DNA of 64,000 nt from Candidatus Aminicenantes bacterium (lineage in GTDB: Bacteria; Acidobacteriota; Aminicenantia; Aminicenantales; UBA4085): the NCBI GenBank assembly GCA_963848835.1, contig CAWKFB010000017.1, positions 89,647 through 153,646 of the forward strand, read 5' to 3'. Positions 3,885-26,945 of the stretch are shown here, in pieces. The first letter of the stretch is position 1, and every line of letters begins with the position of its first letter. The position numbers and the translations under genes were made by a program. Under the pieces are notes generated by a model. It did no database searches. It was given only the letters and a program-made list of their open reading frames with translations, and was not told the DNA's origin.

Positions 3885-3996
3885 CGTTTCCCTTCCTCTC
3901 GCCTTGAATGAACGGATGATATGGGGAAACCGGTATCCTGTCAATTCCGATCGATTCCATTGGTCAGAGGGCCGGTGATTCGGGTACAATCGCTCC

Positions 3997-5671
3997 ATGC
4001 CTTCCGATACGCAGGTCATCTTCAGCATGAGCGGGGTGGGCCGGGTCCATCCGCCCAACCGCCAGGTCCTCAAAGACATCTCCCTCGGCTTCTACTATGG
4101 GGCCAAGATCGGCGTCCTCGGGCTGAACGGGTCCGGGAAATCCACGCTGTTGCGGATCATCGCCGGAGTGGACAAGGATTTCATCGGCGAGCTCGCCATG
4201 AGCAAAGGATATACAGTCGGCCTGCTCGAACAGGAGCCGCACCTCGATCCCGCCAAGACCGTCATCGAGATCGTCCGGGAGGGCGTCCAGCCGATCGTCG
4301 ACATTCTCGCCCGCTACGACGCCGTGAACGAGAAGTTCGCCCTGCCCGACGCCGACATGGAAGCCTTGTGCGCCGAGCAGGCCAGGCTCCTCGAAGAGAT
4401 CGAGCGCCACGACGCCTGGAACCTGGACAACCATCTCGAGATCGCCATGGAGGCGCTCCGCTGCCCGCCTCCCGATACGCCGGTGACCGTCCTTTCGGGA
4501 GGAGAGCGGCGCCGGGTGGCTTTAACGCGCCTCCTGCTCATGGAGCCGGACATCCTCCTCCTGGACGAGCCGACGAACCATCTCGACGCCGAATCCGTGG
4601 CCTGGCTCGAGCGCCATCTCCAGGAATACAAGGGCACGGTCATCGCCGTGACCCACGACCGCTATTTCCTGGACAACGTCGCCGGCTGGATCCTCGAGCT
4701 CGACCGGGGCATGGGCATCCCCTGGAAGGGCAACTACTCGTCCTGGCTCGAGCAGAAGAGCGCCCGCCTGGCCGTGGAGGAGAAGACCGAGAGCCGCCGG
4801 CAGCGGACGCTGGCCCGCGAGCTCGAATGGATCCGCATGTCGCCCAAGGCCCGCCAGGCCAAGGGCAAAGCCCGCGTCAACGCCTACGAGGACCTGCTCG
4901 GGAAGGACTTCGAAAAGGTCCGGGACGAGCAGGAGATCCCCATCCCCCCGGGCCCGCGGCTGGGAGACCTCGTCGTCGCCTTCGAGGACGTGTCCAAGGG
5001 ATACGGGGACCGCCTGCTCATCGACGGCCTGACCTTCAGCATCCCCGCGGGATCGATCGTCGGGGTCATCGGCCCGAACGGCGCGGGGAAGACGACCCTG
5101 CTCCGAATGATCACGGGCGCGGAAGCCGCCGGACAACGGCCGCATCAAGATCGGCGAAACCGTGAAGCTCGCCTACGCCGACCAGTCCCGGACCCTCGAC
5201 GCGGCGAAATCGGTCTACGAAGAGATCTCGGGCGGAGCCGACATCATGACGGTCGCCGGCCGGACGATGAACGCGCGGGCTTATTGCGCCTCGTTCGGAT
5301 TCTCCGGGACGGACCAGCAGAAGAAGGTCGGCTCGCTCTCGGGCGGCGAAAGGAACCGGGTCCACCTGGCCAAGGCCCTCTCCGAAGGCGCGAACGTGCT
5401 GCTCCTCGACGAGCCGACCAACGACCTCGACGTCAACACCCTTCGCGCCCTCGAGGATGCCCTGACGAGCTTCGCCGGATCGGCCGTGGTGGTCAGCCAC
5501 GACCGCTGGTTCCTCGACCGCGTCGCGACGCACATCCTGGCCTTCGAGGAGGACGGGACGGTCCAGTGGATCTTCGGAAACTTCTCCGAGTACCACGAGA
5601 ACCTTAGGAAGCGCCGCGGGACGGCGGCCGACCAACCGCACCGGCTGAAGTACCGGACCCTTAAGCGCTGA
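3997..5671 (+). pseudogene. ettA: ABC-F translation factor EttA, interrupted by one apparent +1 frameshift near 5116-5125. This may be an assembly indel rather than a true pseudogene.
   Basis: ORF 3997..5607 is EttA-like up to [18 protein letters not shown] and then loses sense. The +1 frame from about 5123 reads [23 protein letters not shown] and continues as ORF 5162..5671. Two Walker A motifs (GLNGSGKST, GPNGAGKTT) and two LSGGE signatures are present. Confidence 0.85.
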
Positions 5672-5756: not shown

Positions 5757-8465
5757 ATGCCCGTCGCCTGCCCGAAGTGCCGCATCTCCAACCCGGAGAC
5801 CTCCCGTTTCTGCTCCGGCTGCGGGACGGTGCTTCCGGCCGCGGAGGTCACCGAAACCCTCCAGACCTCCGAGCGCGAGCTTGCGACCGGCGCGATCATC
5901 GCCGGCCGCTACCAGGTCATCGAAGAGCTCGGCCACGGCGGCATGGGCCGCGTCTATAAGGTTCAGGACACCAAGGTCGGCGAGAAGGTCGCCCTGAAGG
6001 TCCTTCGGCCCGAAGCCGGACTCGACAAGAAAGCCCTCGAGCGCTTCACCAACGAGCTGAAGCTCGCCCGCAAGATCCGCCACAAGAACGTCTGCCAGAT
6101 GTTCGACCTCGGCGAGGACGCCGGAACGCTCTACATCACCATGGAGTACGTCCACGGCGAGGACCTCAAGCAGATCATCCGAAAGATGGGACGGCTGTCG
6201 CCGGGCCAGGCGGTCGGGATCGCCCTCCAGGTCTGCGACGGCCTCGCCGAAGCCCACAAGCTGGGGGTCATCCATCGCGACCTCAAGCCGCAGAACATCA
6301 TGCTGGACGAGGACGGGAACGCCCGGATCATGGACTTCGGCATCGCCCGCTCGCTTTCGGGGAAAGGGATCACGGGCGCCGGCGTCATGATCGGGACGCC
6401 CGAGTACATGAGCCCCGAGCAGGTGGAAGGGATGGACGTCGATCCGCGCTCGGACATCTATTCCCTCGGCGCCGTTCTTTACGAGATGACGACAGGCCGC
6501 GTGCCGTTCGAGGGCGACACGCCTTTCACGATCGGGGTGAAACACAAGAGCGAGCTCCCGAAAGACCCTCGAGCTCTCAACCCCGGCCTTCCGGAGGACT
6601 TGAGCCACGTCATCCTCCGCTGCCTGGAGAAGGACCGGGAGAAGCGATACGCGAGCGCCGCCGGCCTGCGCGCCGAGCTGGACAAGATCGGACAGGGCGT
6701 CCCGGCCGCTGAGCGGGCGGTCCCCGTCCGCAAGACCGCGACCTCACGGGAAATCACGCTCAAGTTCGCCCCGCGGAGGCTCATCCTTCCCGGGGCCGTC
6801 CTGGCCGCGCTGGCCGCGGCCGGCCTCTTCGTCCTGCTCAAGCCGCACGCTCCCCCCGTCGATCCGAAGCGAGTCGTTGTCCTGCCCTTCGAGAACAAGA
6901 CCGGCGACCCAAAGCTCGAAAACATCGGTTTCATGGCCTCCGACTGGATCACCCAGGGATTGATGCAGATGCAGGGAGTCGCCGTCTCGTCCGTCCCGGA
7001 CGCCGAAGCGCTCAAGAGCCTCAAAGAGGACAAGGACAAGGTCCGGCTGATCTCCCGGGCGACTCAAGCGGGAAAGGTCGTCACCGGAGCCTATTACCTC
7101 GAAGCGGAGACCCTGCGGTTCGCCGCCCAGGTCCACGACGCCCTTCAGGGAGGGCTCCTGAGCGCCGTCGAACCGGAGAGCGGCGCCGTCCAGGAGCCGG
7201 TCAAGATCATCGAAACCATGCGGCAAAAGGTCATGGGAACCGTGGCCGCCCTGCTCAACGCGGAAGTCCCTCTGAAATTCCTGATCCGATTCCCGAATCT
7301 TCGGGCTTACCAGGCCTATGCGGAAGGATGGAAGGTCTTTAATCGCAGCGATTGGCGAAAGGCCATCGAATTCTTCGATCAGGCCAATCAAGCGGACCCG
7401 GATTTCATCACCCCGCGCATTTTCGCGGCCATCGCCTACTCCAATCTCCGCGAATATGCCCGAGCGGAAGAGGTCATCCGCAAAATCGATGCCGTCAAGG
7501 ATCGATTGGTTCCTTGGCAAGTCATTCTTCTGGAAAGCCTACAGGCCCAATTGCGAGGAGATGGGATCGGTCAATACAGGGCGGACAAGCGCCTCTACGA
7601 AGTCGACCCCCATGCCTTTAGCGCCTACGGCCTGGGCTGGAGCGCGGTCAGGATCAATCGCCCCCGCGAAGCCGTTCAGGTCCTCAAGACGATCGATCCC
7701 GAGTCCCCTATGATCAAAGATTGGATCGGCTACTGGGCCTTTTATACGTTCGCTTACCACATGCTCGGGGATTATCGGAAAGAGCTGGCCGTGGCGCGCC
7801 AAGCGCGGAAATATTATCCCGACTGGCGGTTGCCCGTCTTCTACGAAACTCGCGCCCAGGCCGCGTCCGGAAAGATTAAGGAGATCGAGCGCCTCATCCG
7901 GGAGAGCCAGACTCTTCCCCCCGATGGGGTCCATGATCTTCGGTTTTACTATGTCGGAGCAGGCCGGATGCTCCGCGCCCACGGCTTCCGGAAAGAATCC
8001 CTGGAGTTCATGGACCGGGCTCTCGAATGGCTTCGCGGCCGGCCCGATTCGGAAAAGAAGACCCAGGCTTATCGACGCAACCTGGCCGAGTGCTTTTACG
8101 AAGCGGAGAAATGGGCCGAGGCCAAGACGGAATACGAAGCCTTGGCCAAGGAATTTCCGAACAATCTCGGGTATTTGTCCTTTCTCGGGAATATCGCCGC
8201 CAAGCGGGGAGACCGGGAGGAGGCCCTGAGGATCTCGGACGAGATCGGCAAGGTCGAACGGCCCTATCTCTTCGGCTCGATCCCCTATTACCAAGCGTGC
8301 ATCGCTTCGCTTCTCGGCGAAAAAGAAAAGGCCGTCAAGCTCCTCCAGGAATCCATCGCCCGCGGGGAAGTTTTCGGTCCGGGTGGCCGACTCTACCCCA
8401 ATCTAGCCTTGGAGCCGCTCGCCGACTACCCGCCCTTCAAGGAATTCATCAAGCCCAAAGGATGA
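5757..8465 (+). CDS. Ser/Thr protein kinase with zinc ribbon, kinase domain, TM helix, ectodomain and TPR repeats; a paralog of 768..3884
   Basis: 902-aa ORF. It has an N-terminal [19 protein letters not shown], then [21 protein letters not shown] and GTPEYMSPE. The kinase domain is clearly paralogous to the first kinase by eye. A TM helix ([20 protein letters not shown]) is followed by a TPR-like C-terminal half. Confidence 0.9.
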
Positions 8466-8468
8466 ATC

Positions 8469-10020
8469 TTATTTCGTCGTCTTCCGCGGGATGCGGGCGT
8501 CGCTCATGGCCGCGTTGTAGGCGAAGGCGGCCATGATGACCGCGTTCTTCATCAGGTCCTCGGGCAGGAGGGTGTCGTAGAAGTCCATGTTGGCGTGGCC
8601 GCCGAAGCCGACGCCGGTCCTGGAGGAACTGGAATCCCGGGAGGTTGACCCGGTCGAAGGAGACGTGGTCGGTGCTGCCGACGCTCTGGATCGTGAGCGT
8701 CGTGAAGCCCATATCGCGGAACGGTTTCATCCATTCGGCGAACATCGGCCGGACGAACTCGTTGCCCTGCAGGTTGACGCCCCGGAACGCGCCCGGCGCC
8801 GTAGTCCTGGTTGAAGTAGACCGAGAACTTGTCGTACTCGGGCTTCTTCCCGATCTTCGGGTCTTTGGGATCGCCGAAGTGCTTCAAGACGTACTCGCGC
8901 GAGCCGTGGAGGCCCTGCTCCTCGCCTCCCCAGAAGGCGACGCGGATCGTCCGCCGGGGCTTGAGCGCCGATCGCCTTGAGGATGCGGGCCGCCTCGAGC
9001 GCGACGGCGCAGCCGCCGGCGTCGTCGCTCGCGCCGGGGCTGGCGTGCCAGGAGTCGAAGTGGGCGCCCATCATGACGACCTCGTCCTTGAGGTCGTTCC
9101 CGGGATCTCGCCGATGACGTTGGCCGCCTTCTCGACCGAGTCGCCGATGCGGTTGCGGCACCTCGACCTCGATCTTGACCGGGATGCCCCGCCGCAGGAT
9201 CCGGACCATCCGGTTGTAGTGCTCGGGCGTCACCTGCGACGAGGGGCATCGAGGCGAGGTCCTTCTCCCGCGACCAGCGGTCGGCGTTCACGCCCGGCCG
9301 GCCGAAGCCGCGGACGACGCCGAACGCTGCCGCTGTCGCACTGAAGGACGACCGTCGCGCCCTCGGCCTTGTAGAAGGCGATCTTATCCTCGGGCCGGAC
9401 GACGTCGGGATTGGGCGGGACGGGCGGCTTCGCCGCCGGCACCGGCGGCGATCACGGTCTCCTCGAGCCGCTTGAGCTCCTCGTCGGTGCGCCGTGTGAC
9501 GCCCTGGGGCATGGCGGCGGGATCGATGGGCCACAGGCGGCGACGCCAGGACGGCCATCCCCTTCAGCTTGCCCTTGAACTTCTCGAGGTCCTTTTTCGT
9601 CTGGATCTCCGCGATCACGGCTGGCAGGTCATCTTCCCGTTCGTCCCGGGCGTGTAGGCGAGCGGGAAGCCCATCATGTACTGGTAGTCGGGCTCGAGCA
9701 TGTGGAGCGAGAAATACTCGTTGTCCCAGGCTACCCCGTAATCCATGAACGGCTCGATGACGACGTTCGAAAAGCCCGACTTTCTCCATCTTGTCCTTGG
9801 CCCAAACTTGCGCCCTCTGCATGTCCCGGGACAGGGTCAGCCTGGCGCCCAGAACGTCGGTCATATAGCCAACGATGTCCATGACCTGGGAGCGCTGGAA
9901 GCCTTCCTCCCGGATCCTGGCAACCATGTCGGACGGGGAGCTTTGCCGGGCGGGAGAAAGAACGGCCAGGGAGACGAAGATGATCGCCATGGCGATCGAG
10001 GATCGGTGAAGTCGCATCAT
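8469..10020 (-). pseudogene. M28-family aminopeptidase, secreted, broken by at least about 10 frame changes
   Basis: Recognisable pieces lie in all three minus frames. ORF 8884..10020 holds the N-terminal signal peptide plus AVIAEIQTKKDLEKFKGKLKGMAVLASPP. ORF 9230..9442 holds PEDKIAFYKAEGATVVLQ. ORF 8727..9233 holds [34 protein letters not shown]. My translation gives [22 protein letters not shown] 8449..8745 holds [18 protein letters not shown]. The stop is TAA at 8471..8469. Confidence 0.8.
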
Positions 10021-10064: not shown

Positions 10065-11407
10065 TCAGACGGACTTTTCGATGATGTTGATGCCGATCTT
10101 CTCGAGCAGCGGATAGGGCAGCTCGCCCCCGATCATGATGAAGACGAAATCGTTCTCGATCTCAGCGCTGCGGTCGTCGGTCGACACGACCACGGATTTG
10201 GGCTTGATCTCCTTGACCGCGCTCTGGAAACGAACGTTGATCGTCTTCTGCTTGACGGCGGCGTCGATCTTTTCCCTGTTCCGCGCTTTGGCCAGAGGAA
10301 ATCCTTCCCCCCGGACGACGAGGGTGACCGGGCATCCCTGGCTGGCCAAGGCCAGCGCCGCCTCGAGGCTCGCATCCCCTCCTCCGACGATCGTGATGGA
10401 GCGGCCCCGGAATTCCTGGGCGTCCGACAACATGTAGAACACCTTGGCAAGGTCTTCTCCGGGGACCTTCAGCTTGCGGGGCTCGCCCCGCGTTCCCAAG
10501 GCCAGGATGATCTTATCGCAGGGAATTTCCCGCCCGCCGGCCGAAACGATGAAACGCTCCCCTTCTTTCTGACCGCTTCGAGCCTGGCCCCGGTGATGAT
10601 CGGGACCGCAGTCTTTTCCAGGATCCGGTCCCACACCTCAAGGAGCTTTTCCCGGGTCGTGTCGCCGACCCAGATCGGACCGACCAGGGGCATGTCCAAC
10701 GGCTCGGCCATGACGATCTTCCGTTTCGGAAAATTCTTGATCGTGTTGGCCGCGGCGTCCTTTTCGAGACACGTCGCCGGAAGGCCGAACTTCCGCGAGC
10801 TCAGGAAGGCCGAAAGGCCGGCCGGGCCCGCCCCGACGATCACGAGATGGGGCAAACGGGCGGGAAAGACGCCGCGCATGATGACGTTCAGGACCGCCCG
10901 GCCCTGATTGATCGATTCCTTGATCAGCCCCGCGCCGGCCAGCGTGCCGATGATGTAGATCCCGGGGACGTTGGTCTCGAAGTTCTCGTCGATCTGGGGG
11001 GCGCGGACCTTCAGCTTCTGACCGTATTCGATCAGCTGGTTGGCTCCGGTCGGACAGGCCTTTTCGCATTCGCCGCAGCCGTCGCAGAGGCGCGGGTCGA
11101 GAAGGGTCGACTTCCCGGAGATGATCACGAGCGTCTTGTTCTTCTTGCAGGTGAGCACGCACGTCCCGCAGCCGACGCAGACGCCCCGGTTGATGCTCGG
11201 GTACATCTTCCGGCCCGTGGGATGGCGGCTCTCGATCCGGCTGATATCCGCCTCCGACAGGCCGGACAGCGGGACGATCTGGTGGACCAGGAGCCTGGCT
11301 CTCCGGAGCTTCCGGATCTCCCAGCGGACGAAGGGGAGAAAGACGACGAGAAAGAGGAACGCTCCGATCAGGAAGAGAAGGACGCGATGGTCGGTCAGAA
11401 GATCCAT
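10065..11407 (-). CDS. Membrane-anchored 2x[4Fe-4S] ferredoxin domain fused to a thioredoxin-reductase-like FAD/NAD(P) oxidoreductase. One apparent frameshift near 10565-10575.
   Basis: ATG 11407 overlaps the upstream stop (TGATG). The product starts MDLLTDHRVLLFLIGAFLFLVVFLPFV (TM helix) followed by RWEIRKLRRAR. It contains CVGCGTCVLTC and CDGCGECEKACP, VIVGAGPAGLSAF (FAD GxGxxG) and ITIVGGGDASLEAALAL (NAD(P) GxGxxA). The frame switches from ORF 10469..12217 to ORF 10065..10634. Confidence 0.75.
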
Positions 11408-12217
11408 CAGTGCCCCATAGAGACCGTGACATAGACGTGGACGGCGAGGAGAAGGAACATCAGGACGACGAAGGGAATGTGGAAGAGATGCCAGAAATGG
11501 AGCAACTTCAGGGTTTTTTCGAGGAGCTGTTTCCTCCGCAGCAAGCCCTGGCGAGCCAGGATCAGCTTGAGGAGCTGCTTCCGGTCCCTGGCTTCGACGC
11601 TCCTCTCCGCTTTGAGGACTTTGTTCAGGCGGGCCCCGAACGCGCCGGGGCGGCAGGGCGCCGAGCCCTTCCCGGTCCGTCCCGGCCATCAGGTCCCAGA
11701 ACCGATGGGCGGGAGGAAGGAACTTCCGGATCTCGAAGGTCAGGCGGATCTCCTCGGCCTCGAGCTCGATCCGGCTGAGCTCCATCCCGGACAGGGAGCG
11801 GGGGATCATCCGGTAGATGTACCTCCCGACGACGCCGCTCGCGACGACGACGACCATCGCACCGAAGCAGAGGCCGACGAGGCCGCCGATCTTGAAGACC
11901 GCATGGAACAAGACGAGAGCGGGGCCGGCCAGGCCGAAGAAGATATGGACGTTCAGCCAAGCGTCCAGGTTTCCCCAACCGCGCATGAACCGCAGCCTCT
12001 TCCGCAGGGAGTAGGCGAGGAGGAGGATCATGAACAGGGCCCCGATGATCCCCAGCAGATGGCCCAGCGTTCCGCTTTGTCGCAGAAGCGGGTGGAGGGC
12101 GTGCCGGACCCTTTTCGCGGCCGGGGCCGTATAGTAGTCCCAGCCATAGACGCTCAGGCCGACCAGGCCGAGGAGGACGGCCGCGTAGGCGGCGGCGAAA
12201 AACGGCTTCGCCTTCAT
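11407..12217 (-). CDS. His-rich integral membrane protein of about 5 TM helices, possibly haem-b binding. One apparent frameshift near 11640-11665.
   Basis: The N-terminus of ORF 10469..12217 has TM helices with His residues (LGHLLGIIG, WLNVHIFFG, LVLFHAVF). After about 11650 the sensible reading moves to another frame: AFGARLNKVLKAERS...LLHFWHLFHIPFVVLMFLLLAVHVYVTVSMGH*. The stop TGA is at 11409..11407. Confidence 0.6.
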
Positions 12218-12230
12218 CGCCCCCGGCCGA

Positions 12231-15200
12231 TCATGGGTTCCCTCGAGGATGGCAGGAGAAGCAGTTCGCCGAGTTGTAGACGTACCCCGACCGGCCCCGA
12301 TGCTCCGAGTCCGTTGAGCTCCGCGTATGGCAGGTCAGGCAGGTGAAAACCCGGTAGTTCGCCGCGTCGGGATGGCAAGCCGTGCAGGCGTTTCCGGAAT
12401 GGCGGCCCGAAGAGATGGGAAAGGCGGTATGGTTGAACGTCCCCTGCGTCCAGGACGTGTCCGTGGCCCGATGGCAGGTCGAACAGGCCGTCGAAAATCC
12501 GGAGGCAACGTGGTTGGGATTCCGGGTTTGATCGTAGCTCGACCGGTGGCAGCCGTAGCAGTCGCGCGGCGTGCCCCGATAGACTCCGTTGATATGGCAG
12601 GCGGCGCAGGGCTGGGCGGCGTGGACGCCGACCAGGGCGAACGTCGAAGAGTGATTGAACGTTCCCTGAGTCCAGAGGCGTGTCCGTGGCCCGATGGCAG
12701 GTCTCGCAGACCGTCGAGAAGCCCGGAAGCGGCGTGGTTGGGATTCCGGGTCTGATCGTAATTCGTCCGGTGGCAGCCGTAGCAATCGCGGGGCGTGCCC
12801 TTGTAGATCCCGTTGACGTGACAGGCGGCGCAGGGCTGGGCGGCGTGGACGCCGACCAGGGCAAACGTCGCGGCGTGATTGATGCCCGGCCTGGGTCCAG
12901 AGCGTATCCGTGGGCCGATGGCAGGTGTCGCAGGCCGTCGAGAAGCCCGACGCGGCATGGTTGGGATTCTTGGTCTGATCGTAGCTCGACCGGTGGCAGC
13001 CGTAGCAGTCGCGCGGCGTGCCCCGATAGACTCCGTTGATATGGCAGGCGGCGCAAGGCTGGGCGGCGTGGAGGCCGACCAGGGCGTATGAGGTCGCGTG
13101 ATTGAATGACCCCTGGGTCCAGAGCGTATCCGTGGCCCGATGGCAGGTGTCGCAGGCCGTCGAGAATCCCGACGCGGCATGGTTGGGATTCTTGGTCTGA
13201 TCGTAGCTCGACCGGTGGCAGCCGTAGCAGTCGCGCGGCGTGCCCCGATAGACTCCGGTGATATGGCAGGCGGCGCAAGGCTGGGCGGCATGGACGCCGA
13301 CCAGGGCATATGAGGTCGCGTGATTGAATGACCCCTGGGTCCAGAGCGTATCCGTGGGCCGATGGCAGGCATCGCAAGCCGTCGAGAAGCCCGCGGCGGC
13401 GTGGCTGGGATTCTTGGTCTGATCGTAGCTCGACCGGTGGCAGCCGTAGCAGTCGCGCGGCGTGCCCCGATAGACTCCGGTGATATGGCAGGCGGCGCAA
13501 GGCTGGGCGGCATGGACGCCGACCAGGGCATATGAGGTCGCGTGATTGAATGACCCCTGGGTCCAGAGCGTATCCGTGGGCCGATGGCAGGCATCGCAAG
13601 CCGTCGAGAAGCCCGCGGCGGCGTGGCTGGGATTCTTGGTCTGATCGTAGCTCGACCGGTGGCAGCCGTAGCAGTCGCGTGAAGTCCCTTGATAAACCCC
13701 GGTTGCGTGGCAGGCGGCGCAGGGCTGGGCGGCGTGGACGCCGACCAGGGCGTACTTCGAGGCATGATTGAAGACGCCCCGGGCCCAGGACGGATCGGCG
13801 GCTTTGTGGCAGGTTTCGCACGAAGTCGGAAATCCCGCCGCGCCGTGAGCGGGATTCTGGGTCCGGTCGAAATCCGTCCGATGGCAGCCGATGCATGCGT
13901 TCGGGGTGCCCTTGTAGACGGAGTTCACGTGACACGCGCCGCACGCCTGCGCGGCGTGGACGCCGACGAGAGGATAGGCCGAGCCATGATTAAAGAATCC
14001 CCGGTCCCAGCCGGAGTCGGTCGGCTTATGGCAAACCTCGCAGACCGTCGGGAACCCCGCGGCCGCGTGCTCGGGCTGCTTGGTCCGCTCGTAGTCGGGC
14101 CGGTGGCAGCCGAAGCAATCCCGAGCCGTTCCCCGAAAGACGTTGTTCTTGTGGCAGGCGGCGCAGGCCTGGCCGGCGTGGGTCCCGACGAGCGGATAGC
14201 TCGCGTTGTGGTCGAACCTCCCCTGGGTGAAGGCGGCGTCGGCCGGATTGTGGCAGATCTGGCAGAGGGTCGGAAAGCCGGACGAGGCGTGCGGCGGATT
14301 CCGAGTCCCGGCGTAATCCTGACGGTGACAGGAAAAGCAATCCGAGGACGTACCGACGAAAGTCCCGCCCTTATGGCAGCTCGAACATCCGAGCGAGGCG
14401 TGGCGGCCGTTCAAGGCGAGGCCGGTTCGCGCGCCGTGGTCCCACTTAGCCCCCGTCCACGCGAGCGGCTTGTGGCATTCTTCGCACTGGGCTCCCAACC
14501 GGGTCCTGTAAGGATCGTCCTGACGCCGGATCCAGTGGCAGCTGTTACAGTCCTTGGGCGTCCCCTTGACCACTCCGTCTCGGTGGCACGAGGCGCAGGG
14601 AACGGAGATGTGCCGGCCTTCGAGCCGGTATTCGGTCTGCTGGTGGAAGGACACCGCGGTGCTGGTCCACGAGGCTGTTGTGTGGCAGGAGGCGCAGGCT
14701 TCCTTCAATGCCCCTTGATGCGGGTCCTTGTGGCAGGTCGAACAGGCTTGGGCGTCGGGCCGGAGAGCTCCCGGCGGCCGCGACCGCTTGAGCCGCGGGG
14801 TCTCGGCGGTGTGGCAGGCCGCGCAATCCACGGCCGCGTGGCGGCCCGTCAGGGGATATTCGGTTTTGGCGTGATCAGAAGCCCGGTGGCATCCGGAGCA
14901 TTTCGAAGCGGTAGGCTTGTAGCGGATCACAAGCCCGGGCCGGCCGGTTTCTCCGGCCGCCGCGCGGGGGTGGCATTTATCGCAGGATGTCGCCTCGTGA
15001 AAGACCTTGAGGGAAAAGGCGCTCTTTTCGTGAGAGAAGCCGGGGGCCGGCTTGAACCGGACGGCATCGTGACACGAGGCGCAGTTTGGTCCGAGCTGGC
15101 CGGCGTGCTCGTCCCGATGGCAGGAAGCGCAGGCGTTCGAGAGCGGACGATAACGGACGGCCGCGGCCGTCACGCCGCCGGGCGGAGGCGCCTCCTTCGT

Positions 15201-16466
15201 GTGGCATTTGCCGCAATTCAGGGCCGCGTGGGCTCCTTCCAGCCGGTAGGTGGAGTCCTTCTGATGATCGAATGCGGAATAAGCGCGGCCGAAACCCGCC
15301 GTCGTGTGGCAGGATTCGCAGGCCTTATTGAATTGACCAAGATGGATGTCTTTGTGGCAATCGAGGCAGGCGGTCCCGAGCGGGCGGTACCGGACGAGGT
15401 CAGGCCCCTCTTCCGCTTTATGGCACTTGGCGCAGGCCACCGAGGCGTGCTTTCCGGTCAACGGGTACCGTGAGCGTTGATGGTCGGTTTTCGCTTTTTT
15501 AAACGTCGTTTCGTCGTGGCAGGCGGCGCAGTCGGCCGCGAATTGGCCGCGGTGGGGATCGGCCGCGTGGCACGTCCGGCAGGTTTCGCCGGGGACCTTG
15601 TCGAGCTTCCCGTTCTTGTGGCACTGGGCGCACTTGAGCGCCGCGTGCTTGCCCTTCAAAGCGAACTTCGACTTGGCATGGCCGGGCGTGCCGGACTTCC
15701 AGGACGCGTCGTTGTGGCATTGGGCGCAGGTTTTTCCGAAGGAGGGCAGGTGAGGGTCCTTATGGCAGTCGGCGCAGGCGCCGAATTTCAGCCCTTTCCA
15801 CTTTTTCGCCGGATGGCACTTCAGGCAGGCGACGCTCCGGTGCGCTCCCTGGGGGCGATAAGCGGCCCGGGAATGATCGAAGTCCGCCTCTTTCAAGGGC
15901 CGGTCGACGGAATGGCAGACCGAGCAATCGCGGGGGCCGAACTGGCCTTTGTGCGGATCGTCGTGGCAGCCCGAGCAGCGCGTATCCTTGACCAGGTAGG
16001 AGACCGTCGTCTTCGTCGAAGGAGCGGTCCGGACGTTGTGGCACTTGAGGCACTCCCTGACGGTCGTGTGCTTCCCGGTCAAGGGCGCGCCGGTCTTGGA
16101 GTGGTCGAAGGTCCTGGGATTCCAGTCGATCAGCCCGAAGTCCGTCCCTTGATGATCGGGGTGGCAGGTCGCGCAGCCGCTCTTTTTATCCTGATGGAAT
16201 CCCCGGCCGGCGGCGATCCGGGCGGCCAGGTCTTTGTGGCAGGCCAGACATTTTTCCTCGACCGACTTGGTTCCGGGCGTATGGCACTTGCCGCAGCTCG
16301 TCAGGTCGGAGAGGTCGGAGTGGGCGCGGCTGAGCTTCCCGGGAGAAATGAGGAGGGCTGCTTCCTGGGCGGCCAACGGGGCTGCAGTCGCCCCAAAGAG
16401 CAAGAAGGCCAGGATTCCCGGCCAGATCGCTTGCCGCGCGGCGATATATCGCTTTTTCGTTTTCAT
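12231..16466 (-). CDS. Giant secreted multihaem c-type cytochrome (1411 aa as read), a polymer of c7-like modules
   Basis: It has a signal peptide (MKTKKRYIAARQAIWPGILAFLLFGATAAPLAAQ). I count 53 CXXCH motifs in the ORF as written, plus 3 more in a 71-codon out-of-frame stretch. The module F[DN]Hx5-6LxGxHx3-4CxxCH recurs throughout. Confidence 0.9.
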   Translation of the reverse strand: MKTKKRYIAARQAIWPGILAFLLFGATAAPLAAQEAALLISPGKLSRAHSDLSDLTSCGKCHTPGTKSVEEKCLACHKDLAARIAAGRGFHQDKKSGCATCHPDHQGTDFGLIDWNPRTFDHSKTGAPLTGKHTTVRECLKCHNVRTAPSTKTTVSYLVKDTRCSGCHDDPHKGQFGPRDCSVCHSVDRPLKEADFDHSRAAYRPQGAHRSVACLKCHPAKKWKGLKFGACADCHKDPHLPSFGKTCAQCHNDASWKSGTPGHAKSKFALKGKHAALKCAQCHKNGKLDKVPGETCRTCHAADPHRGQFAADCAACHDETTFKKAKTDHQRSRYPLTGKHASVACAKCHKAEEGPDLVRYRPLGTACLDCHKDIHLGQFNKACESCHTTAGFGRAYSAFDHQKDSTYRLEGAHAALNCGKCHTKEAPPPGGVTAAAVRYRPLSNACASCHRDEHAGQLGPNCASCHDAVRFKPAPGFSHEKSAFSLKVFHEATSCDKCHPRAAAGETGRPGLVIRYKPTASKCSGCHRASDHAKTEYPLTGRHAAVDCAACHTAETPRLKRSRPPGALRPDAQACSTCHKDPHQGALKEACASCHTTASWTSTAVSFHQQTEYRLEGRHISVPCASCHRDGVVKGTPKDCNSCHWIRRQDDPYRTRLGAQCEECHKPLAWTGAKWDHGARTGLALNGRHASLGCSSCHKGGTFVGTSSDCFSCHRQDYAGTRNPPHASSGFPTLCQICHNPADAAFTQGRFDHNASYPLVGTHAGQACAACHKNNVFRGTARDCFGCHRPDYERTKQPEHAAAGFPTVCEVCHKPTDSGWDRGFFNHGSAYPLVGVHAAQACGACHVNSVYKGTPNACIGCHRTDFDRTQNPAHGAAGFPTSCETCHKAADPSWARGVFNHASKYALVGVHAAQPCAACHATGVYQGTSRDCYGCHRSSYDQTKNPSHAAAGFSTACDACHRPTDTLWTQGSFNHATSYALVGVHAAQPCAACHITGVYRGTPRDCYGCHRSSYDQTKNPSHAAAGFSTACDACHRPTDTLWTQGSFNHATSYALVGVHAAQPCAACHITGVYRGTPRDCYGCHRSSYDQTKNPNHAASGFSTACDTCHRATDTLWTQGSFNHATSYALVGLHAAQPCAACHINGVYRGTPRDCYGCHRSSYDQTKNPNHAASGFSTACDTCHRPTDTLWTQAGHQSRRDVCPGRRPRRPALRRLSRQRDLQGHAPRLLRLPPDELRSDPESQPRRFRASRRSARPAIGPRTRLWTQGTFNHSSTFALVGVHAAQPCAACHINGVYRGTPRDCYGCHRSSYDQTRNPNHVASGFSTACSTCHRATDTSWTQGTFNHTAFPISSGRHSGNACTACHPDAANYRVFTCLTCHTRSSTDSEHRGRSGYVYNSANCFSCHPRGNP
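12512..14288 (-). repeat. Tandem coding repeats of 222 nt (74 codons), about 8-9 units. Each unit is a tri-haem module (CxxCH x3).
   Basis: The unit is AAGFSTACDACHRPTDTLWTQGSFNHATSYALVGVHAAQPCAACHITGVYRGTPRDCYGCHRSSYDQTKNPxH. By eye, nt ~13184-13457 recur identically at ~13406-13679 (offset 222). Flanking units are progressively more diverged. Confidence 0.9.
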
Positions 16467-18683: not shown

Positions 18684-21600
18684 ATGCATTCTCTCCTCAT
18701 CCGCCACGCGGCCGAAAACAACCTGAAGGGCGTCGATGTCGACATCCCCCACGGCCGGATGACCGTCGTCACCGGCGTATCCGGCTCGGGAAAATCCTCC
18801 CTCGTCTTCGACGTCATCTACCGCGAAGCCCGGCGCCGCTATCTCGAGACTTTCTCGTCCTACGCCCGCCAGTTCATGGGCAAGCTCCGTCGGCCCGACG
18901 TGGGCCTGGTCAGCGGCCTCTCCCCCGCCGTCGCCGTCTCCCAAAAGGCCGCCGCGGCCGGCCCCCGGTCCACGGTCGGAACGCTGACCGGGATCCACGA
19001 CGATCTCCGGCTCCTCTTCGCCCGCCTGGGAACCGCGCCCGAGGGGATCCGGCTCTCGCGGCGGATGTTCTCCTTCAACTCGGCCGAGGGGGCATGCCCC
19101 GCCTGCCGCGGGCTCGGCGTCGAGGACCGCATCGACCCCGATCTCCTCGTCTCCGATCCCGGCAAAACCCTCCGCCAGGGAGCGCTGTCCCTGACGACCC
19201 CGAACGGCTACATCATCTATTCCCAGGTCACCATCGAGGTGCTGGACGAGGTTTGCCGGGCCCATGGATTCTCGGTCGATATTCCCTGGCGCGAGCTGAC
19301 CGAAGCCCAGCGCGGGATCGTCCTCAACGGGAGCGGCCGCGTCCGCATCCGCTTCGGAAAGCATCCGCTCGAATCGCGGCTCCGCTGGAAAGGGATCACG
19401 GCCAAGCCGCGCGAAGAAGGATTCTACAAGGGCATCCTTCCGGTGATGGAGACGATCCTGAGGTCCAAGCGGAACGACAACATCCTCCGCTTCGCCCGGA
19501 CGCTCCCCTGCCGCGCCTGCGGCGGCCGCCGCCTCCGGCCCGAATCCCTCCGCGTGACCGTGGAGGACCGCTCCATCGCCGACCTCTCCGCGTTGAGCCT
19601 GGGCGATCTGGCCGCCCGCGTCCGGGCCATGGATTTCGGAACGCCGGCGGCCGATCGGGCCGCCGGAGAGGCCGTCCGCGCCTCCATTCTCGGCAAGACC
19701 GGCCTGCTCGAGCGCCTCGGCCTCGGCTATCTCCGGCTCGACCGGGCAGCGGACTCGCTTTCGGGGGGCGAGTCCCAGCGCATCCGCCTCACCGCTCAAG
19801 CCGGAAGCGGACTGCGGGGCATGCTCTACGTCCTCGACGAGCCGACCGCGGGGCTCCATCCCGCCGACACCGCCCGGCTCCTGGAGGTGCTGGGCGAGCT
19901 CCGCGACAACGGCAACACGGTCCTTGTCGTCGAGCACGACGAGGACGTGATGCGGGCGGCGGACCATCTGATCGACCTCGGCCCCGGACCGGGAGAGGAG
20001 GGCGGCAGGGTTCTGTATCAAGGCCCGGCGCGCGATCTCCTCAAGATCCCTCGCGGGTCGAGCCCGACCCGGGATTTTCTCGCCGGCGATAGGAAACCAG
20101 CGGCACATTCCCTGGGCCGGCCGGGAACGGGGCGCATCCTCGTCAGGGGGGCGCGCCTGCACAACCTGCGCGATTTGGAGGTCGAGTTCAGGCTCGGCGC
20201 CCTCAACGTAGTCACGGGTGTCTCGGGGGCGGGCAAAACAACGCTGGTCCGTCATGTTCTGGCCGAGCGGCTCCGGACAGGCCGATCCGGACCCGGTCCC
20301 GACGCCGACGGCGTCCTCGTCGAAGGGACCGTGGGACGGGTGATCGAGATCGACCGCTCTCCGATCGGCCGGACGCCGCGCTCCAACCCGGCAACCTATA
20401 CGAAGATCTCCGACCGGGTCCGCGACCTCTTCGCCGCGCTGCCCGAATCCCGGGACCGCGGCTTCGGGAAGGGCCGCTTTTCCTTCAATGTGACCGGCGG
20501 CCGGTGCGAAACCTGCCGTGGCGCCGGCCTCCTCCAGATCGGGATGCATTTCCTGGGCGACGTAGACGTCGTCTGCCCGGCCTGCGAAGGCCGCCGCTTC
20601 AATGACGCGACCCTCGCGGTGCGGGACCGCGGGAAGAGCATCCACGACGTCCTCGAAATGAGCGTCTCGGAAGCGGCCGCATTCTACCGCGACGCGGTCC
20701 GGCTCGCGGCCGACCTCGAGGTCCTAAAGCACCTCGGCCTGGGCTATCTCAAGCTGGGACAGGGTTCGACGACCCTTTCGGGCGGCGAAGCCCAGCGGAT
20801 CAAGCTGGCCTCCGAGCTGCGCCGGGCCGGATCGGCGCCCGCGCTCATCATCCTCGAGGAGCCGACGACCGGATTGCACCGGGCGGACATCGAACACCTT
20901 CTCGCCGCCCTCCAGGAGATCGTTTCCCGCGGCGGGACGATCATCGCCATCGAGCACCACCCCGACGTCATCCGCGCCGCCGACCATATCGTGGATCTCG
21001 GTCCGGGAAGCGGCGAAGACGGCGGCCGTCTCGTCGCCTGCGGAAGGCCGGACGCGATCGCGGCTTGCGCGGCCTCGGCGACGGGGCGCGCGCTCCGGGG
21101 GGAATTCGCGTCGGAAGCCCTCCGCGCGGCGGGGGTTCGGGGCCGTCCGGACGCCGAAGGACCGATCATCCTCGAAGGCGTTTCGACCCATAACCTCCGC
21201 GGCATCGACGTCCGCATCCCCTTCCGGAAATTCACGGCCGTCAGCGGGCCATCGGGCGGGGGCAAATCCTCGCTTGTCTTCGATACGCTGTACGCCGCAT
21301 CCCGGCAAAAGTACATCGAAAGCTTCTCCGCTTACGTGCGGGCGCTCATCGACAAGGGCGGACGGGCCGATTTCGCATCGGCCCGCGGATTGACCCCGCC
21401 GGTCGCGGTCGGCCGCGCCTCCTCCGCGTCCCATCCGCGTTCGACAGTCGGGACGATGACCGAGATCTACGACTATTACCGGCTGTTGTACGCGCGCGCG
21501 GGCGTCCCCCCTCCCGAGCGGACCGGCCGGACGCTCTCGGCGTCGATGTTCTCCTTCAACCATGATCAGGGCGCCTGCCCCGGATGCAAGGGCCTCGGGA

Positions 21601-24596: not shown

Positions 24597-26945
<2,349 letters not shown>

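What the first reader, a model, noticed from the sequence alone, without database searches (positions are those of the whole stretch)
10065..16466. Three-gene operon: a ~56-haem cytochrome, a His-rich membrane protein and a membrane-anchored FeS flavoprotein; candidate trans-envelope electron conduit
**Gene arrangement (all minus strand).**
- A secreted 1411-aa cytochrome (53 CXXCH as read, 56 if the shifted repeat is repaired) ends at 12231.
- A ~270-aa polytopic protein starts 14 nt downstream, at 12217. It carries conserved His in several TM helices (LGHLLG, NVHIFFG, LFHAVF, HFWHLFHIPF, AVHVYV).
- The stop of that gene overlaps (TGATG at 11405-11409) the start of a protein with one TM helix, two [4Fe-4S] motifs and a TrxR-like FAD/NAD(P) domain.
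- The positive patch after that TM helix (RWEIRKLRRAR) suggests the FeS/flavin part is cytoplasmic.

**Inference.**
- The arrangement suggests cytoplasmic NAD(P)H or ferredoxin passing electrons to the FeS-flavoprotein, then to a haem-b-type membrane relay, then to a very long periplasmic or extracellular haem wire.
- In function this would be a split NOX/ferric-reductase-like module coupled to a c7-polymer cytochrome.
- Polymers of c7-type domains are known from Geobacter (e.g. the dodecahaem GSU1996). This gene partnership is not one I recognise as a described system.
Basis: inference. Interest (0 to 1): 0.7.

Follow-up and report, generated by a model that had tools for sequence, protein, structure and literature searches.

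The report
Flavoprotein, haem-b relay, giant cytochrome operon
The three genes are a real unit found in hundreds of bacterial species, and they most likely pass electrons from cytoplasmic NAD(P)H across the inner membrane to a very long haem chain; neither the membrane protein nor the partnership appears to have been described.

Summary
On the minus strand lie three genes:
- a Sec-exported cytochrome of 1411 aa, with 53 CXXCH as read and 56 after repair;
- a membrane protein (MEMB) of about 270 aa;
- a membrane-anchored FeS flavoprotein (FLAVO) of 447 aa.

All three carry single-base frame errors. These look technical, because dN/dS stays at 0.1-0.25 on both sides of each shift.

MEMB matches no Pfam or NCBIfam model and no PDB sequence or fold. 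It has four invariant His, arranged as H-x13-H on TM3 and again on TM5, which is the classic pattern for two stacked b-haems.

FLAVO has an N-terminal anchor, a positively charged (inside) patch, two FeS motifs and a circularly permuted YpdA/TrxR-like FAD/NAD(P)H domain that lacks the thiol Cys.

At least 595 species genomes hold a MEMB homolog. In 69 informative loci, 64 have FLAVO downstream and 65 have multihaem cytochromes downstream. The usual operon is MEMB, FLAVO, a 20-haem cytochrome, a larger cytochrome, then a predicted outer-membrane beta-barrel. The window's cytochrome is that 20-haem protein with a long C-terminal extension. The window has no barrel gene.

Best reading: a quinone-independent NAD(P)H-to-cytochrome transmembrane module. 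Donor, direction and haem binding are inferred, not shown.

The parts
12231..16466 (-). Sec-exported multihaem cytochrome c, 1411 aa. It has 53 CXXCH as read and 56 after repair. Residues 1-528 form a 20-haem module; the rest is made of triheme repeats.
   Evidence: ORF. CXXCH count and signal peptide. Pfam Cytochrome_C7 at 194 bits in 13 stretches. TIGR04257 at 45.3 bits against a cutoff of 40. Collinear with the 530-aa 20-haem cytochrome of Saccharicrinis, 32% identity, E 1e-79.
12433..13751 (-). Tandem array inside the cytochrome gene: 222-nt units (74 aa, 3 haems), 5.9 copies, 90% matches. The haem number is therefore sensitive to assembly.
   Evidence: Tandem Repeats Finder. The ortholog in L001 has 1320 aa and 53 CXXCH.
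12678..12890 (-). One repeat copy read through the two other frames. Three single-base shifts sum to zero, and three further CXXCH motifs are hidden here.
   Evidence: Three-frame translation. Overlapping ORFs 12335-13765 and 12214-13944.
11407..12217 (-). MEMB: a 5-TM membrane protein, 270 aa as repaired, predicted N-in/C-out. It belongs to an unannotated family. It is the candidate di-haem-b transmembrane relay.
   Evidence: Reconstruction. 79% identical to the intact 273-aa P0001. No Pfam or NCBIfam hit. AF2 model of P0001 at pLDDT 84 with five long helices plus a cytoplasmic helical insert. K+R counts per loop.
11903..11947 (-). TM3 His pair: H91 (11945-11947) and H105 (11903-11905), with H-x13-H spacing. 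Both are invariant in the family.
   Evidence: Alignment A1. Coordinates.
11437..11481 (-). TM5 His pair, equivalent to H246 and H260 of P0001 (11479-11481 and 11437-11439), with H-x13-H spacing. Both are invariant in the family.
   Evidence: Alignment A1. Coordinates.
11634..11640 (-). Site of a 1-nt insertion relative to the ortholog, which shifts the MEMB frame.
   Evidence: DNA alignment to L001. The junction is RRVR|ARLNK.
11405..11409 (-). TGATG: the MEMB stop overlaps the FLAVO start by 1 nt. The TGA replaces CGA of the ortholog and removes the conserved C-terminal RWIF.
   Evidence: W271 is conserved in at least 90% of family members.
10065..11407 (-). FLAVO: a membrane-anchored FeS flavoprotein, 447 aa as repaired.
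   Evidence: Pfam Fer4 families plus Pyr_redox_3 at 138 bits. Closest solved structures are YpdA/Bdr 7A76 and 7A7B.
11327..11383 (-). N-terminal TM anchor of FLAVO (residues 9-27), followed by RWEIRKLRRAR.
   Evidence: The anchor and the positive patch after it are conserved in 65 of 65 homologs.
11051..11179 (-). Two CxxCxxCxxxC motifs, CVGCGTCVLTCK and CDGCGECEKACP, forming a 2x[4Fe-4S] ferredoxin-like domain.
   Evidence: In most other lineages the second Cys of each motif is Thr or His.
10362..10972 (-). Flavin domain. The C-terminal-type FAD motif NVPGIYIIGTLAGAG (10928-10972) lies before the first GxGxxG (10814-10843). The second dinucleotide site is GGGDASLE (10362-10394).
   Evidence: Residues 140-172 align to residues 280-313 of Bdr while residues 188-446 align to 6-273, which indicates a circular permutation.
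10559..10568 (-). Site of a 1-nt deletion relative to the ortholog (A4 to A3), which shifts the FLAVO frame.

Best explanation
The three genes encode an inner-membrane electron-transfer module that links the cytoplasmic pyridine-nucleotide pool to a periplasmic haem chain without using quinones.

**Proposed path.**
1. FLAVO is held at the membrane by one N-terminal helix, with its redox domains in the cytoplasm. It takes a hydride from NAD(P)H onto FAD and passes single electrons through its two FeS clusters.
2. MEMB is a 5-TM protein. It binds two b-haems between TM3 and TM5, through the pairs H91/H246 on the cytoplasmic side and H105/H260 on the periplasmic side. These haems carry the electrons across the membrane. 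The basic helical insert of about 105 residues between TM4 and TM5 is the likely docking surface for FLAVO.
3. The electrons enter the 20-haem N-terminal module of the exported cytochrome and run along its triheme repeats.
4. In most other lineages the chain continues through a second large cytochrome and an outer-membrane beta-barrel to the cell surface. This window has the two cytochromes fused and no barrel gene.

**Likely role.** The hosts are peptide- and sugar-degrading anaerobes, so the probable role is disposal of NAD(P)H electrons to extracellular or periplasmic acceptors.

**Shown here.** Gene content, domain content, conserved residues, predicted topology and conserved synteny.

**Inferred.** Haem b binding, NAD(P)H as donor, physical contact between the parts, and outward direction of flow.
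For: **MEMB.**
- It has four invariant His arranged as H-x13-H on two helices that run in the same direction.
- Predicted topology is N-in/C-out, with K+R-rich loops 2 and 4.
- The model of the ortholog P0001 has pLDDT 84.
- Its only Pfam signals, all sub-threshold, are to haem-b membrane families: DUF4405 in 24 of 32 members, Ferric_reduct in 6 and Ni_hydr_CYTB in 5.

**FLAVO.**
- Fer4 plus Pyr_redox_3/2.
- The nearest structures are YpdA/Bdr (E 6e-31), then TrxR-type ferredoxin-NADP reductases.
- The Bdr thiol Cys in GGGPCGL is Ala here (GAGPAGL).
- All 65 homologs have the anchor followed by a positive patch, and none has a Tat motif.

**Synteny.**
- Close relatives carry the intact trio.
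- Of 69 species-level loci with at least 3 kb downstream of MEMB, 64 have FLAVO downstream and 60 of these have it within 900 nt.
- 65 of the 69 have downstream cytochromes with at least 8 CXXCH.
- 41 of 53 loci with at least 7.5 kb downstream have the barrel X536.
- A 43%-identical FLAVO paralog again sits directly after a MEMB homolog (hhalign E 6e-51) and next to two multihaem cytochromes.

**Other parts.**
- X536 models as a beta-barrel of more than 20 predicted strands. It matches outer-membrane barrels at E about 1e-9, and 347 hits reach E <= 1e-3.
- The window cytochrome's N-terminus is collinear with the 20-haem cytochrome.
- MEMB and FLAVO overlap: by 1 nt here and by 13 nt in L001.
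Against: - No experiment bears on any step.
- No haem b, flavin or FeS content has been measured.
- MEMB has no significant sequence or fold match to any characterised cytochrome b, and the model's coordinates could not be inspected for His geometry.
- Eight of the 80 genome loci have no FLAVO match; in most of these MEMB is directly followed by cytochromes. MEMB can therefore work with another donor, possibly quinol.
- The window copy has frame errors in all three genes and a premature stop in MEMB.
- The window has no outer-membrane partner.
- Outward electron flow would dissipate membrane potential, so it conserves no energy by itself (my reasoning).
Confidence: 0.6

Rival explanations
1. 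MEMB is a quinol:cytochrome c oxidoreductase, a functional analog of CymA, ImcH or CbcL. It takes electrons from menaquinol and passes them to the multihaem cytochromes. FLAVO would then feed the quinone pool or tune the system, rather than donating directly to MEMB.
For: - Eight of the 80 genome loci have no FLAVO match, including Caldithrix abyssi and Vicinamibacterales MAGs; in most of these MEMB is directly followed by cytochromes.
- Di-haem b proteins with this His pattern often have quinone sites (general knowledge of NarI, FdnI and cytochrome b).
- All characterised inner-membrane entry points to extracellular electron transfer in Gram-negatives are quinol oxidases (PMC6295460 title and abstract).
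Against: - MEMB and FLAVO are adjacent or overlapping in 60 of 69 loci and stay paired at 43% FLAVO identity.
- FLAVO is itself membrane-anchored and carries FeS clusters suited to one-electron delivery.
- MEMB has a large conserved cytoplasmic insert that a simple quinol oxidase would not need.
- No quinone-site motif could be tested.
Confidence: 0.2
2. The same architecture runs inward. Electrons taken up by the cytochromes from Fe(II), reduced humics, a partner cell or a cathode cross MEMB and reduce NAD(P)+ or ferredoxin through FLAVO. This would resemble the Tmc/Hmc complexes of sulfate reducers or reverse electron flow.
For: - TrxR-type ferredoxin-NADP reductases are reversible, and they appear among the PDB hits.
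- Tmc/Hmc give a precedent for a cytochrome c to cytochrome b to cytoplasmic FeS path (my knowledge).
- Nothing in the sequences fixes the direction.
Against: - Inward electron movement works against the membrane potential, and NAD(P)+ reduction needs a low-potential donor (my reasoning).
- The window and close relatives encode glycoside hydrolases and many peptidases, which fits organotrophic fermenters rather than lithotrophs.
Confidence: 0.1
3. MEMB and FLAVO are a maturation aid for giant cytochromes. They would supply reductant across the membrane to keep haem iron or apocytochrome CXXCH thiols reduced during attachment.
For: - FLAVO's nearest relatives are disulfide reductases (YpdA/Bdr).
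- In Saccharicrinis a ResB-CcsA fusion lies immediately upstream.
- A small TPR protein with weak CcmH/CycH-TPR similarity sits between MEMB and FLAVO in 14 loci.
Against: - ResB/CcsA is adjacent in only 5 of 81 loci.
- FLAVO lacks the Bdr active Cys and has no CxxC in the flavin domain.
- FLAVO's catalytic domains are cytoplasmic.
- The cluster consistently ends with an outer-membrane barrel, which fits a working conduit.
Confidence: 0.05
4. In this particular genome the operon is dead. The frameshifts and the premature stop are real mutations, and the genes are pseudogenes.
For: - Five single-base frame disruptions and one nonsense change fall within the three genes.
- The neighbouring M28 peptidase gene has about 15 indels.
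- The frameshift-fused 582-aa ORF is present as such in the public protein collection, so the errors are in the deposited contig.
Against: - dN/dS against the ortholog is 0.25 before and 0.12 after the MEMB shift, 0.25 and 0.18 for FLAVO, and 0.15 for M28 despite its indels.
- Nucleotide identity of the indel-rich M28 gene is 0.83, the same as the intact GH2 gene at 0.833. Real decay with 15 indels should bring many extra substitutions.
- The indels are mostly insertions and are clustered in one stretch, as expected from a poorly polished region.
Confidence: 0.12

Closest known systems
NOX / FRE / STEAP / MsrQ-Fre (ferric-reductase-domain systems)
   Same: - A cytoplasmic NAD(P)H flavoprotein feeds two b-haems stacked across the membrane.
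- The haems are held by two His pairs on two helices with about 13-residue spacing.
- The acceptor lies on the outer face.
- As in MsrQ-Fre, the reductase and the haem protein are separate polypeptides.
   Different: - There is no significant match to PF01794. Six of 32 members match sub-threshold, best E 0.01.
- MEMB has 5 TM helices rather than 6, plus a cytoplasmic insert of about 105 residues.
- The reductase is a permuted YpdA/TrxR-type flavoprotein with FeS clusters, not an FNR-type domain.
- The acceptor is a multihaem cytochrome c.
TmcABCD and HmcABCDEF transmembrane redox complexes of Desulfovibrio
   Same: A periplasmic multihaem cytochrome c, a membrane cytochrome b and a cytoplasmic FeS protein are encoded together and span the inner membrane without necessarily using quinone (my knowledge of these complexes).
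   Different: - The cytoplasmic subunit there is a CCG-domain, HdrD-like protein without flavin.
- The cytochrome b there is NarI/HdrE-like.
- Electron flow there is inward.
- No CCG domain or NarI-type match is found here.
Porin-cytochrome conduits (Pcc of Geobacter, MtrCAB of Shewanella)
   Same: - In most relatives the operon ends with large multihaem cytochromes and a beta-barrel of more than 20 predicted strands.
- A divergent Pcc cluster was noted in Ignavibacterium album, IALB_1838-1840 (PMC4245776). It may be the outer part of this operon; I did not test that.
   Different: - Pcc and Mtr are fed by quinol oxidases.
- No MEMB or FLAVO partner is described in that paper.
- The window has no barrel gene.
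- The barrel family has no Pfam model and no names.
YpdA/Bdr bacillithiol-disulfide reductase and TrxR-type ferredoxin-NADP reductases
   Same: FLAVO shares the two-Rossmann FAD/NAD(P)H fold and lacks the TrxR CxxC. The best PDB matches are 7A76 and 7A7B, and TIGR04018 is the best NCBIfam hit.
   Different: - The score is 168.8 against a cutoff of 339.9.
- The active Cys is replaced by Ala.
- The C-terminal FAD motif has moved to the front of the domain.
- A TM anchor and a two-cluster ferredoxin domain are added at the N-terminus.
Polymeric c7-type 'nanowire' cytochromes such as the dodecahaem GSU1996
   Same: The cytochrome is built of repeated triheme c7-like units. It matches Pfam Cytochrome_C7 in 13 stretches, and TIGR04257 above its cutoff.
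   Different: - It has 56 haems rather than 12.
- Its N-terminal 20-haem module is orthologous to a separate protein in other phyla.
- It is encoded with an inner-membrane module.

Membership tests
Ferric reductase domain superfamily (Pfam PF01794; NOX, FRE, MsrQ, STEAP) | Significant match to the Ferric_reduct profile | tested here: not met
   No hit at E <= 0.01 for the window protein. Six of 32 family members match sub-threshold, best E 0.01.
Ferric reductase domain superfamily (Pfam PF01794; NOX, FRE, MsrQ, STEAP) | Two bis-His haem sites formed by His pairs spaced 12-13 residues apart on two transmembrane helices | tested here: met
   H91-x13-H105 on TM3 and H246-x13-H260 on TM5, invariant in 32 of 32 sequences. 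This is a sequence pattern only; haem binding was not measured.
Ferric reductase domain superfamily (Pfam PF01794; NOX, FRE, MsrQ, STEAP) | Six-helix core fold | tested here: not met
   The model has five long membrane helices. There is no Foldseek match to NOX, STEAP or MsrQ better than E 6.
DUF4405 (PF14358), a putative haem-b membrane family | Score above the Pfam gathering threshold | tested here: inconclusive
   24 of 32 members match, best E 0.0018, and only over TM5. P0001 scores 14.7 bits against a cutoff of 26.7.
YpdA/Bdr family (TIGR04018) | Score above the NCBIfam cutoff | tested here: not met
   168.8 bits against a cutoff of 339.9.
YpdA/Bdr family (TIGR04018) | Conserved active-site Cys in the first GGGPCGL motif | tested here: not met
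   The window has GAGPAGL. The family consensus is G.GPAG in at least 90% of 66 sequences. The Bdr sequences in the alignment have GGGPCGL.
YpdA/Bdr family (TIGR04018) | FAD and NAD(P)H dinucleotide-binding motifs | tested here: met
   GxGxxG at residues 189-198 and GGGDASLE at the second site. Pyr_redox_3 at 138 bits.
Porin-cytochrome trans-outer-membrane conduit (Pcc/Mtr type) | Outer-membrane beta-barrel gene adjacent to the multihaem cytochromes | tested here: not met
   Neither tblastn nor an HMM built from 49 X536 sequences finds a homolog anywhere in the 64-kb window. In relatives it is met: 41 of 53 loci, with a barrel model and outer-membrane barrel fold matches.
c7-type polymer cytochromes (TIGR04257, PF14522) | Repeated triheme c7-like domains scoring above the cutoffs | tested here: met
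   PF14522 at 194 bits against a cutoff of 24.8, in 13 stretches. TIGR04257 at 45.3 bits against a cutoff of 40.
Tmc/Hmc-type transmembrane complexes | Cytoplasmic CCG-domain (HdrD-like) FeS subunit and a NarI/HdrE-type cytochrome b | tested here: not met
   No CCG domain in FLAVO and no cytochrome b family hit for MEMB.
Functional class: di-haem b transmembrane electron carrier | Bound b-type haems with bis-His ligation | not testable with these tools
   This needs expression, a pyridine haemochrome assay and spectroscopy.

The most novel reading that the evidence does not exclude
MEMB and FLAVO form a previously unrecognised, quinone-independent NAD(P)H:multihaem-cytochrome oxidoreductase built on a new family of di-haem-b membrane proteins. 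It would be the main inner-membrane entry point to extracellular electron transfer in Bacteroidota, Ignavibacteriota, Calditrichota and Aminicenantes-like Acidobacteriota, letting fermentative organisms dump reducing equivalents onto external acceptors.
Probability: 0.4. Interest if true: 0.85.

Novelty: new variant of a known kind. Interest (0 to 1): 0.72.

Why it matters
[quoted passage not shown] This module would be a direct wire from cytoplasmic NAD(P)H to periplasmic cytochromes.

- **It is widespread.** At least 595 species-level genomes carry it, and the membrane protein has 4701 50%-identity clusters.
- **Its hosts matter.** The phyla involved dominate sediments, sludge and subsurface habitats and are usually scored as fermenters.
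- **It is invisible to annotation.** Two of its components are labelled 'hypothetical' in the sampled public records.
- **It is easy to look for.** The gene order MEMB, FLAVO, 20-haem cytochrome, larger cytochrome, barrel gives a specific marker for metagenomes.
- **It can be tested.** Cultured carriers exist (Saccharicrinis strains).

Tried and rejected
- **PDB searches for MEMB found nothing.**
  - Foldseek gave a best E of 0.84, to unrelated helical proteins.
  - The profile search against PDB sequences matched only coiled coils, at E > 0.7.
- **Apparent fusion proteins were rejected as evidence.**
  - P0270 looked like MEMB fused to cytochrome c, and P0235 like a 2Fe-2S domain fused to MEMB.
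  - On reading the sequences, P0270 is a frameshift read-through of neighbouring genes; P0235, read only by eye, looks like one too.
- **The window's source contig could not be retrieved.** Exact look-ups of the GH2 protein and of the 582-aa ORF returned nothing.
- **The GC3 frame-track scan was too crude.** It could not separate frameshifts from ordinary gene boundaries across the window.
- **The GH2 control for dN/dS was set out of frame** by my coordinates and is not used.
- **The promoter and terminator scan was uninformative.** It found no promoter-like site, and terminator-like hits were at shuffle level.
I repeated it with database proteins.
- **Literature searches.** The library holds only open-access papers and bioRxiv preprints, so a description elsewhere cannot be excluded.

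Full report
**1. What is in the window**

All genes described here are on the minus strand.

- **Cytochrome.**
  - ORF 12231-16466 encodes a 1411-aa protein with an N-terminal signal peptide and 53 CXXCH motifs. These motifs hold 106 of its 107 Cys.
  - Pfam gives Cytochrome_C7 at 194 bits in 13 stretches. NCBIfam's c7 triheme 'nanowire' domain scores above its cutoff.
  - The C-terminal part contains a tandem array of 222-nt units (74 aa, three haems), 5.9 copies at 90% matches.
- One copy, at about 12678-12890, is read through the two other frames.
- **Membrane protein (MEMB).**
  - It starts at 12217, thirteen bases after the cytochrome stop.
  - Its N-terminal 190 or so residues are in one frame and its last 80 or so in another. 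Relative to the ortholog the window has one extra base at about 11634-11640.
  - It ends at TGA 11407-11409, which overlaps the next gene's ATG (TGATG).
  - In the ortholog that codon is CGA and the protein runs four residues further, RWIF.
- **Flavoprotein (FLAVO).** It runs 11407-10065, with one base missing at about 10559-10568.

**2. Are the frame errors real?**

The closest relative is a metagenome contig held as L001 and L002. It carries the same gene order, GH2, cytochrome, MEMB, FLAVO, M28 peptidase, with every gene intact.

- Against this ortholog the window's M28 gene has about 15 single-base indels, most of them insertions. Its nucleotide identity (0.83) nevertheless equals that of the intact GH2 gene (0.833).
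- dN/dS is 0.25 before and 0.12 after the MEMB shift, 0.25 and 0.18 for FLAVO, and 0.15 for M28.
- Many indels without extra substitutions, and purifying selection downstream of each shift, point to sequencing or polishing error in a local stretch rather than to decay.
- A very recent inactivation cannot be excluded.
- The frameshift-fused 582-aa ORF exists as such in the public protein collection, from a 160-kb NCBI/ENA contig. The errors are therefore in the deposited sequence.

**3. The membrane protein**

- *No known family.*
  - It has no Pfam or NCBIfam match.
  - A word-indexed search found 270 relatives. None of the 120 listed carries a Pfam domain, and the only names given are 'hypothetical protein'.
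  - An exhaustive profile search found 4701 50%-identity clusters at E <= 1e-3 and 999 at E <= 1e-30.
- *Conserved residues.* In an alignment of 32 diverse members the invariant residues include H91 and H105 on TM3 and H246 and H260 on TM5.
- *Structure.*
  - An AlphaFold model of the ortholog P0001 (pLDDT 84) shows five long helices and a helical insert of about 105 residues between TM4 and TM5.
  - The model has no Foldseek match in the PDB below E 0.8, and the profile finds no PDB sequence.
- *Topology.* Counts of K+R place the N-terminus, loop 2 (5.2 K+R) and the insert (23 K+R) in the cytoplasm, and the C-terminus outside. TM3 and TM5 then run in the same direction, so H91 can pair with H246 near the cytoplasmic face and H105 with H260 near the outer face.
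- *Weak family signals.*
  - At a permissive threshold the only recurrent Pfam signals are DUF4405 (24 of 32 members, best E 0.0018), Ferric_reduct (6) and Ni_hydr_CYTB (5).
  - To my knowledge, Ferric_reduct and Ni_hydr_CYTB are haem-b membrane families and DUF4405 is a putative one.
  - I take this as a hint of remote kinship, not as membership.

**4. The flavoprotein**

- *Domains.* Pfam finds two 4Fe-4S motifs (CVGCGTCVLTCK and CDGCGECEKACP) and Pyr_redox_3/2.
- *Nearest relatives.*
  - The best NCBIfam model is YpdA/Bdr, at 168.8 bits against a cutoff of 339.9.
  - The closest solved structures are the YpdA/Bdr proteins 7A76 and 7A7B (E 6e-31 and 3e-25). TrxR-type ferredoxin-NADP reductases follow.
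- *Two differences from Bdr.*
  - The Bdr Cys in GGGPCGL is Ala here (GAGPAGL).
  - The FAD motif that is C-terminal in Bdr (residues 280-313) aligns to residues 140-172, ahead of the first Rossmann motif. This indicates a circular permutation.
- *Anchor and orientation.*
  - All 65 full-length homologs have a hydrophobic helix starting near residue 7.
  - On average 0.25 K+R lie before it and 5.7 in the 15 residues after it, and none has a twin-arginine motif.
  - The FeS and flavin domains are therefore predicted to be cytoplasmic.
- *Variant cluster ligands.* In most other lineages the second Cys of each FeS motif is Thr or His, giving CxxTxxCxxxCP and CxGHGxCxxxCP. The window type keeps four Cys in each motif.

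**5. Synteny**

- A scan of one genome per species found at least 595 loci encoding a MEMB relative. The 80 best were fetched.
  - The closest is a Candidatus Aminicenantes MAG, at 54% identity.
  - Most of the rest are Bacteroidota, Ignavibacteriota, Calditrichota and Vicinamibacterales.
- I clustered all ORFs of these loci and counted.
  - Among 69 loci with at least 3 kb downstream of MEMB, 64 have FLAVO downstream on the same strand, and 60 of these have it within 900 nt.
  - 65 of the 69 have downstream cytochromes with at least 8 CXXCH.
  - Among 53 loci with at least 7.5 kb downstream, 41 have a fourth conserved protein, X536.
- The typical order is MEMB, FLAVO, a 20-haem cytochrome of about 530-550 aa, a cytochrome of 13-64 haems, then X536.
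- In the isolate Saccharicrinis sp. FJH54 the cluster is preceded by a ResB-CcsA fusion, but such adjacency occurs in only 5 of 81 loci.
- A FLAVO paralog only 43% identical again lies immediately after a MEMB homolog (hhalign probability 100%, E 6e-51) and beside two multihaem cytochromes.
- NCBI names the Saccharicrinis proteins 'hypothetical protein', 'NAD(P)-binding domain-containing protein' and 'hypothetical' or 'cytochrome c3 family protein'.

**6. The fourth component and the window's variant**

- *X536.*
  - It has a signal peptide, and 37 of 49 copies end in Phe, mostly as RF.
  - It has no Pfam match and only 'hypothetical' names among the 120 relatives listed, out of more than 2000 found.
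  - Its AlphaFold model (pLDDT 73) has a small N-terminal beta domain, a disordered linker and then more than 20 long predicted strands.
  - Foldseek matches it to outer-membrane barrels at E about 1e-9, including the FimD and PapC ushers, AlgE, TonB-dependent receptors and porins. There are 347 hits at E <= 1e-3.
- *The window.*
  - It has no X536 homolog anywhere in its 64 kb, and no other multihaem ORF.
  - Residues 1-528 of its cytochrome are collinear with the whole 530-aa 20-haem protein of Saccharicrinis (32% identity, E 1e-79), including the ISPGxL motif after the signal peptide.
  - The window's gene is thus the 20-haem protein extended by about 36 haems of triheme repeats, placed upstream of MEMB rather than downstream of FLAVO.
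  - Other Aminicenantes-like loci (L004, L005 and L006) keep the MEMB-FLAVO pair, with cytochromes of 15-27 haems on the opposite strand nearby.

**7. Mechanism**

- *Best-supported reading.* NAD(P)H reduces FAD in FLAVO. The FeS clusters pass single electrons to the cytoplasmic-side haem of MEMB. The second haem delivers them to the 20-haem module on the outer face, and the haem chain carries them onward.
- *Cofactor preference.* The Arg that follows the second Rossmann strand (VVRGEG here, YR in the consensus) suggests NADPH. That is my inference only.
- *Energetics.* Outward electron flow would be helped by the membrane potential and would dissipate it. This fits an electron-disposal role in fermenters rather than energy conservation (my reasoning).
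- *Context.* The neighbouring genes (GH2, GH127, and peptidases of families M28, M20, C69 and S41) fit an organotroph.
- *Alternatives.*
  - The main alternative is that MEMB oxidises quinol. The eight loci with no FLAVO match, most of which have MEMB directly followed by cytochromes, keep this open.
  - Reverse (inward) flow is possible on the same architecture.
  - A role in cytochrome maturation is unlikely. ResB/CcsA adjacency is rare, FLAVO has lost the thiol Cys, and its domains face the cytoplasm.

**8. Comparison with known systems**

- *NOX-like in logic.* The module resembles NOX or MsrQ-Fre: a flavoprotein, then two stacked b-haems, then an outside acceptor.
- *Tmc/Hmc-like in architecture.* It resembles Tmc/Hmc: a periplasmic multihaem cytochrome, a membrane cytochrome b and a cytoplasmic FeS protein.
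- *Not a member of either.* It fails the membership tests for both, and for YpdA/Bdr (see the membership table).
- *Outer half.* In relatives the outer half resembles porin-cytochrome conduits. Shi et al. listed a divergent Pcc cluster in Ignavibacterium album (IALB_1838-1840) without mentioning neighbouring oxidoreductase genes (PMC4245776).
- *Literature.* Seven completed full-text searches and six papers opened turned up no description of MEMB, FLAVO or their partnership. The library covers only open-access papers and bioRxiv preprints.

**9. Verdict**

The finding is a new variant of a known kind: a transmembrane electron module feeding multihaem cytochromes, built from an unannotated haem-b-like family and an unusual FeS flavoprotein, and widespread across several phyla. 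Biochemical proof is lacking, and this particular copy carries sequence errors and has no outer-membrane partner.

Noticed in passing
window 8469-10020 (-): The M28/M20 peptidase gene downstream of the operon carries about 15 single-base indels relative to its ortholog, mostly insertions outside long homopolymers. Even so, its nucleotide identity is 0.83 and its dN/dS is 0.15. It looks like a locally unpolished stretch of the assembly.
   Followed up: partly
window 3921-5607 (+): An ABC-F type gene (two ABC_tran domains) appears as two overlapping ORFs in different frames, 3921-5165 and 3997-5607. Its counterpart in L001 is a single 557-aa gene. This may be another frame error outside the operon.
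   Followed up: no
loci L008-L082, gene after the cytochromes (e.g. L033:14118-15731): X536 is a protein family of about 535 aa with more than 2000 members, no Pfam model and only 'hypothetical' names. It is predicted to be a large outer-membrane beta-barrel with an N-terminal beta domain and a conserved C-terminal RF.
   Followed up: yes
FLAVO homologs in L008-L084 (e.g. L014:6124-7473): In most Bacteroidota and Ignavibacteriota copies the two FeS motifs are CxxTxxCxxxCP and CxGHGxCxxxCP. The second Cys of each is replaced by Thr or His, which suggests 3Fe-4S clusters or His-ligated clusters. The window type keeps four Cys in each motif.
   Followed up: partly
loci L012, L013, L020, L023, L025 and others, between MEMB and FLAVO: In 14 loci, mainly Ignavibacteriota, a membrane-anchored TPR protein of about 198 aa is inserted between MEMB and FLAVO. 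It has weak similarity to the CcmH/CycH TPR domain. In 13 loci a DapF-like gene and a 100-aa gene precede MEMB.
   Followed up: partly
window 18684-23588 (+): A 1634-aa ORF contains several repeats of UvrA-like ATPase motifs (GVSGSGKSSLVFD). That is nearly twice the length of a standard UvrA. I judged this from the translation only and ran no domain search.
   Followed up: no
window 768-4079 (-) and 5757-8465 (+): Two large Ser/Thr protein kinases lie next to the operon region. The first has Pfam-confirmed Pkinase and C-terminal TPR domains. The second was read from its translation only.
   Followed up: no
window 24597-26819 (-) versus L001:1-2038: Monomeric isocitrate dehydrogenase, the ABC-F gene, GH2 and the operon are all shared with the L001 contig but in a different order. 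This indicates local rearrangement between close relatives.
   Followed up: no
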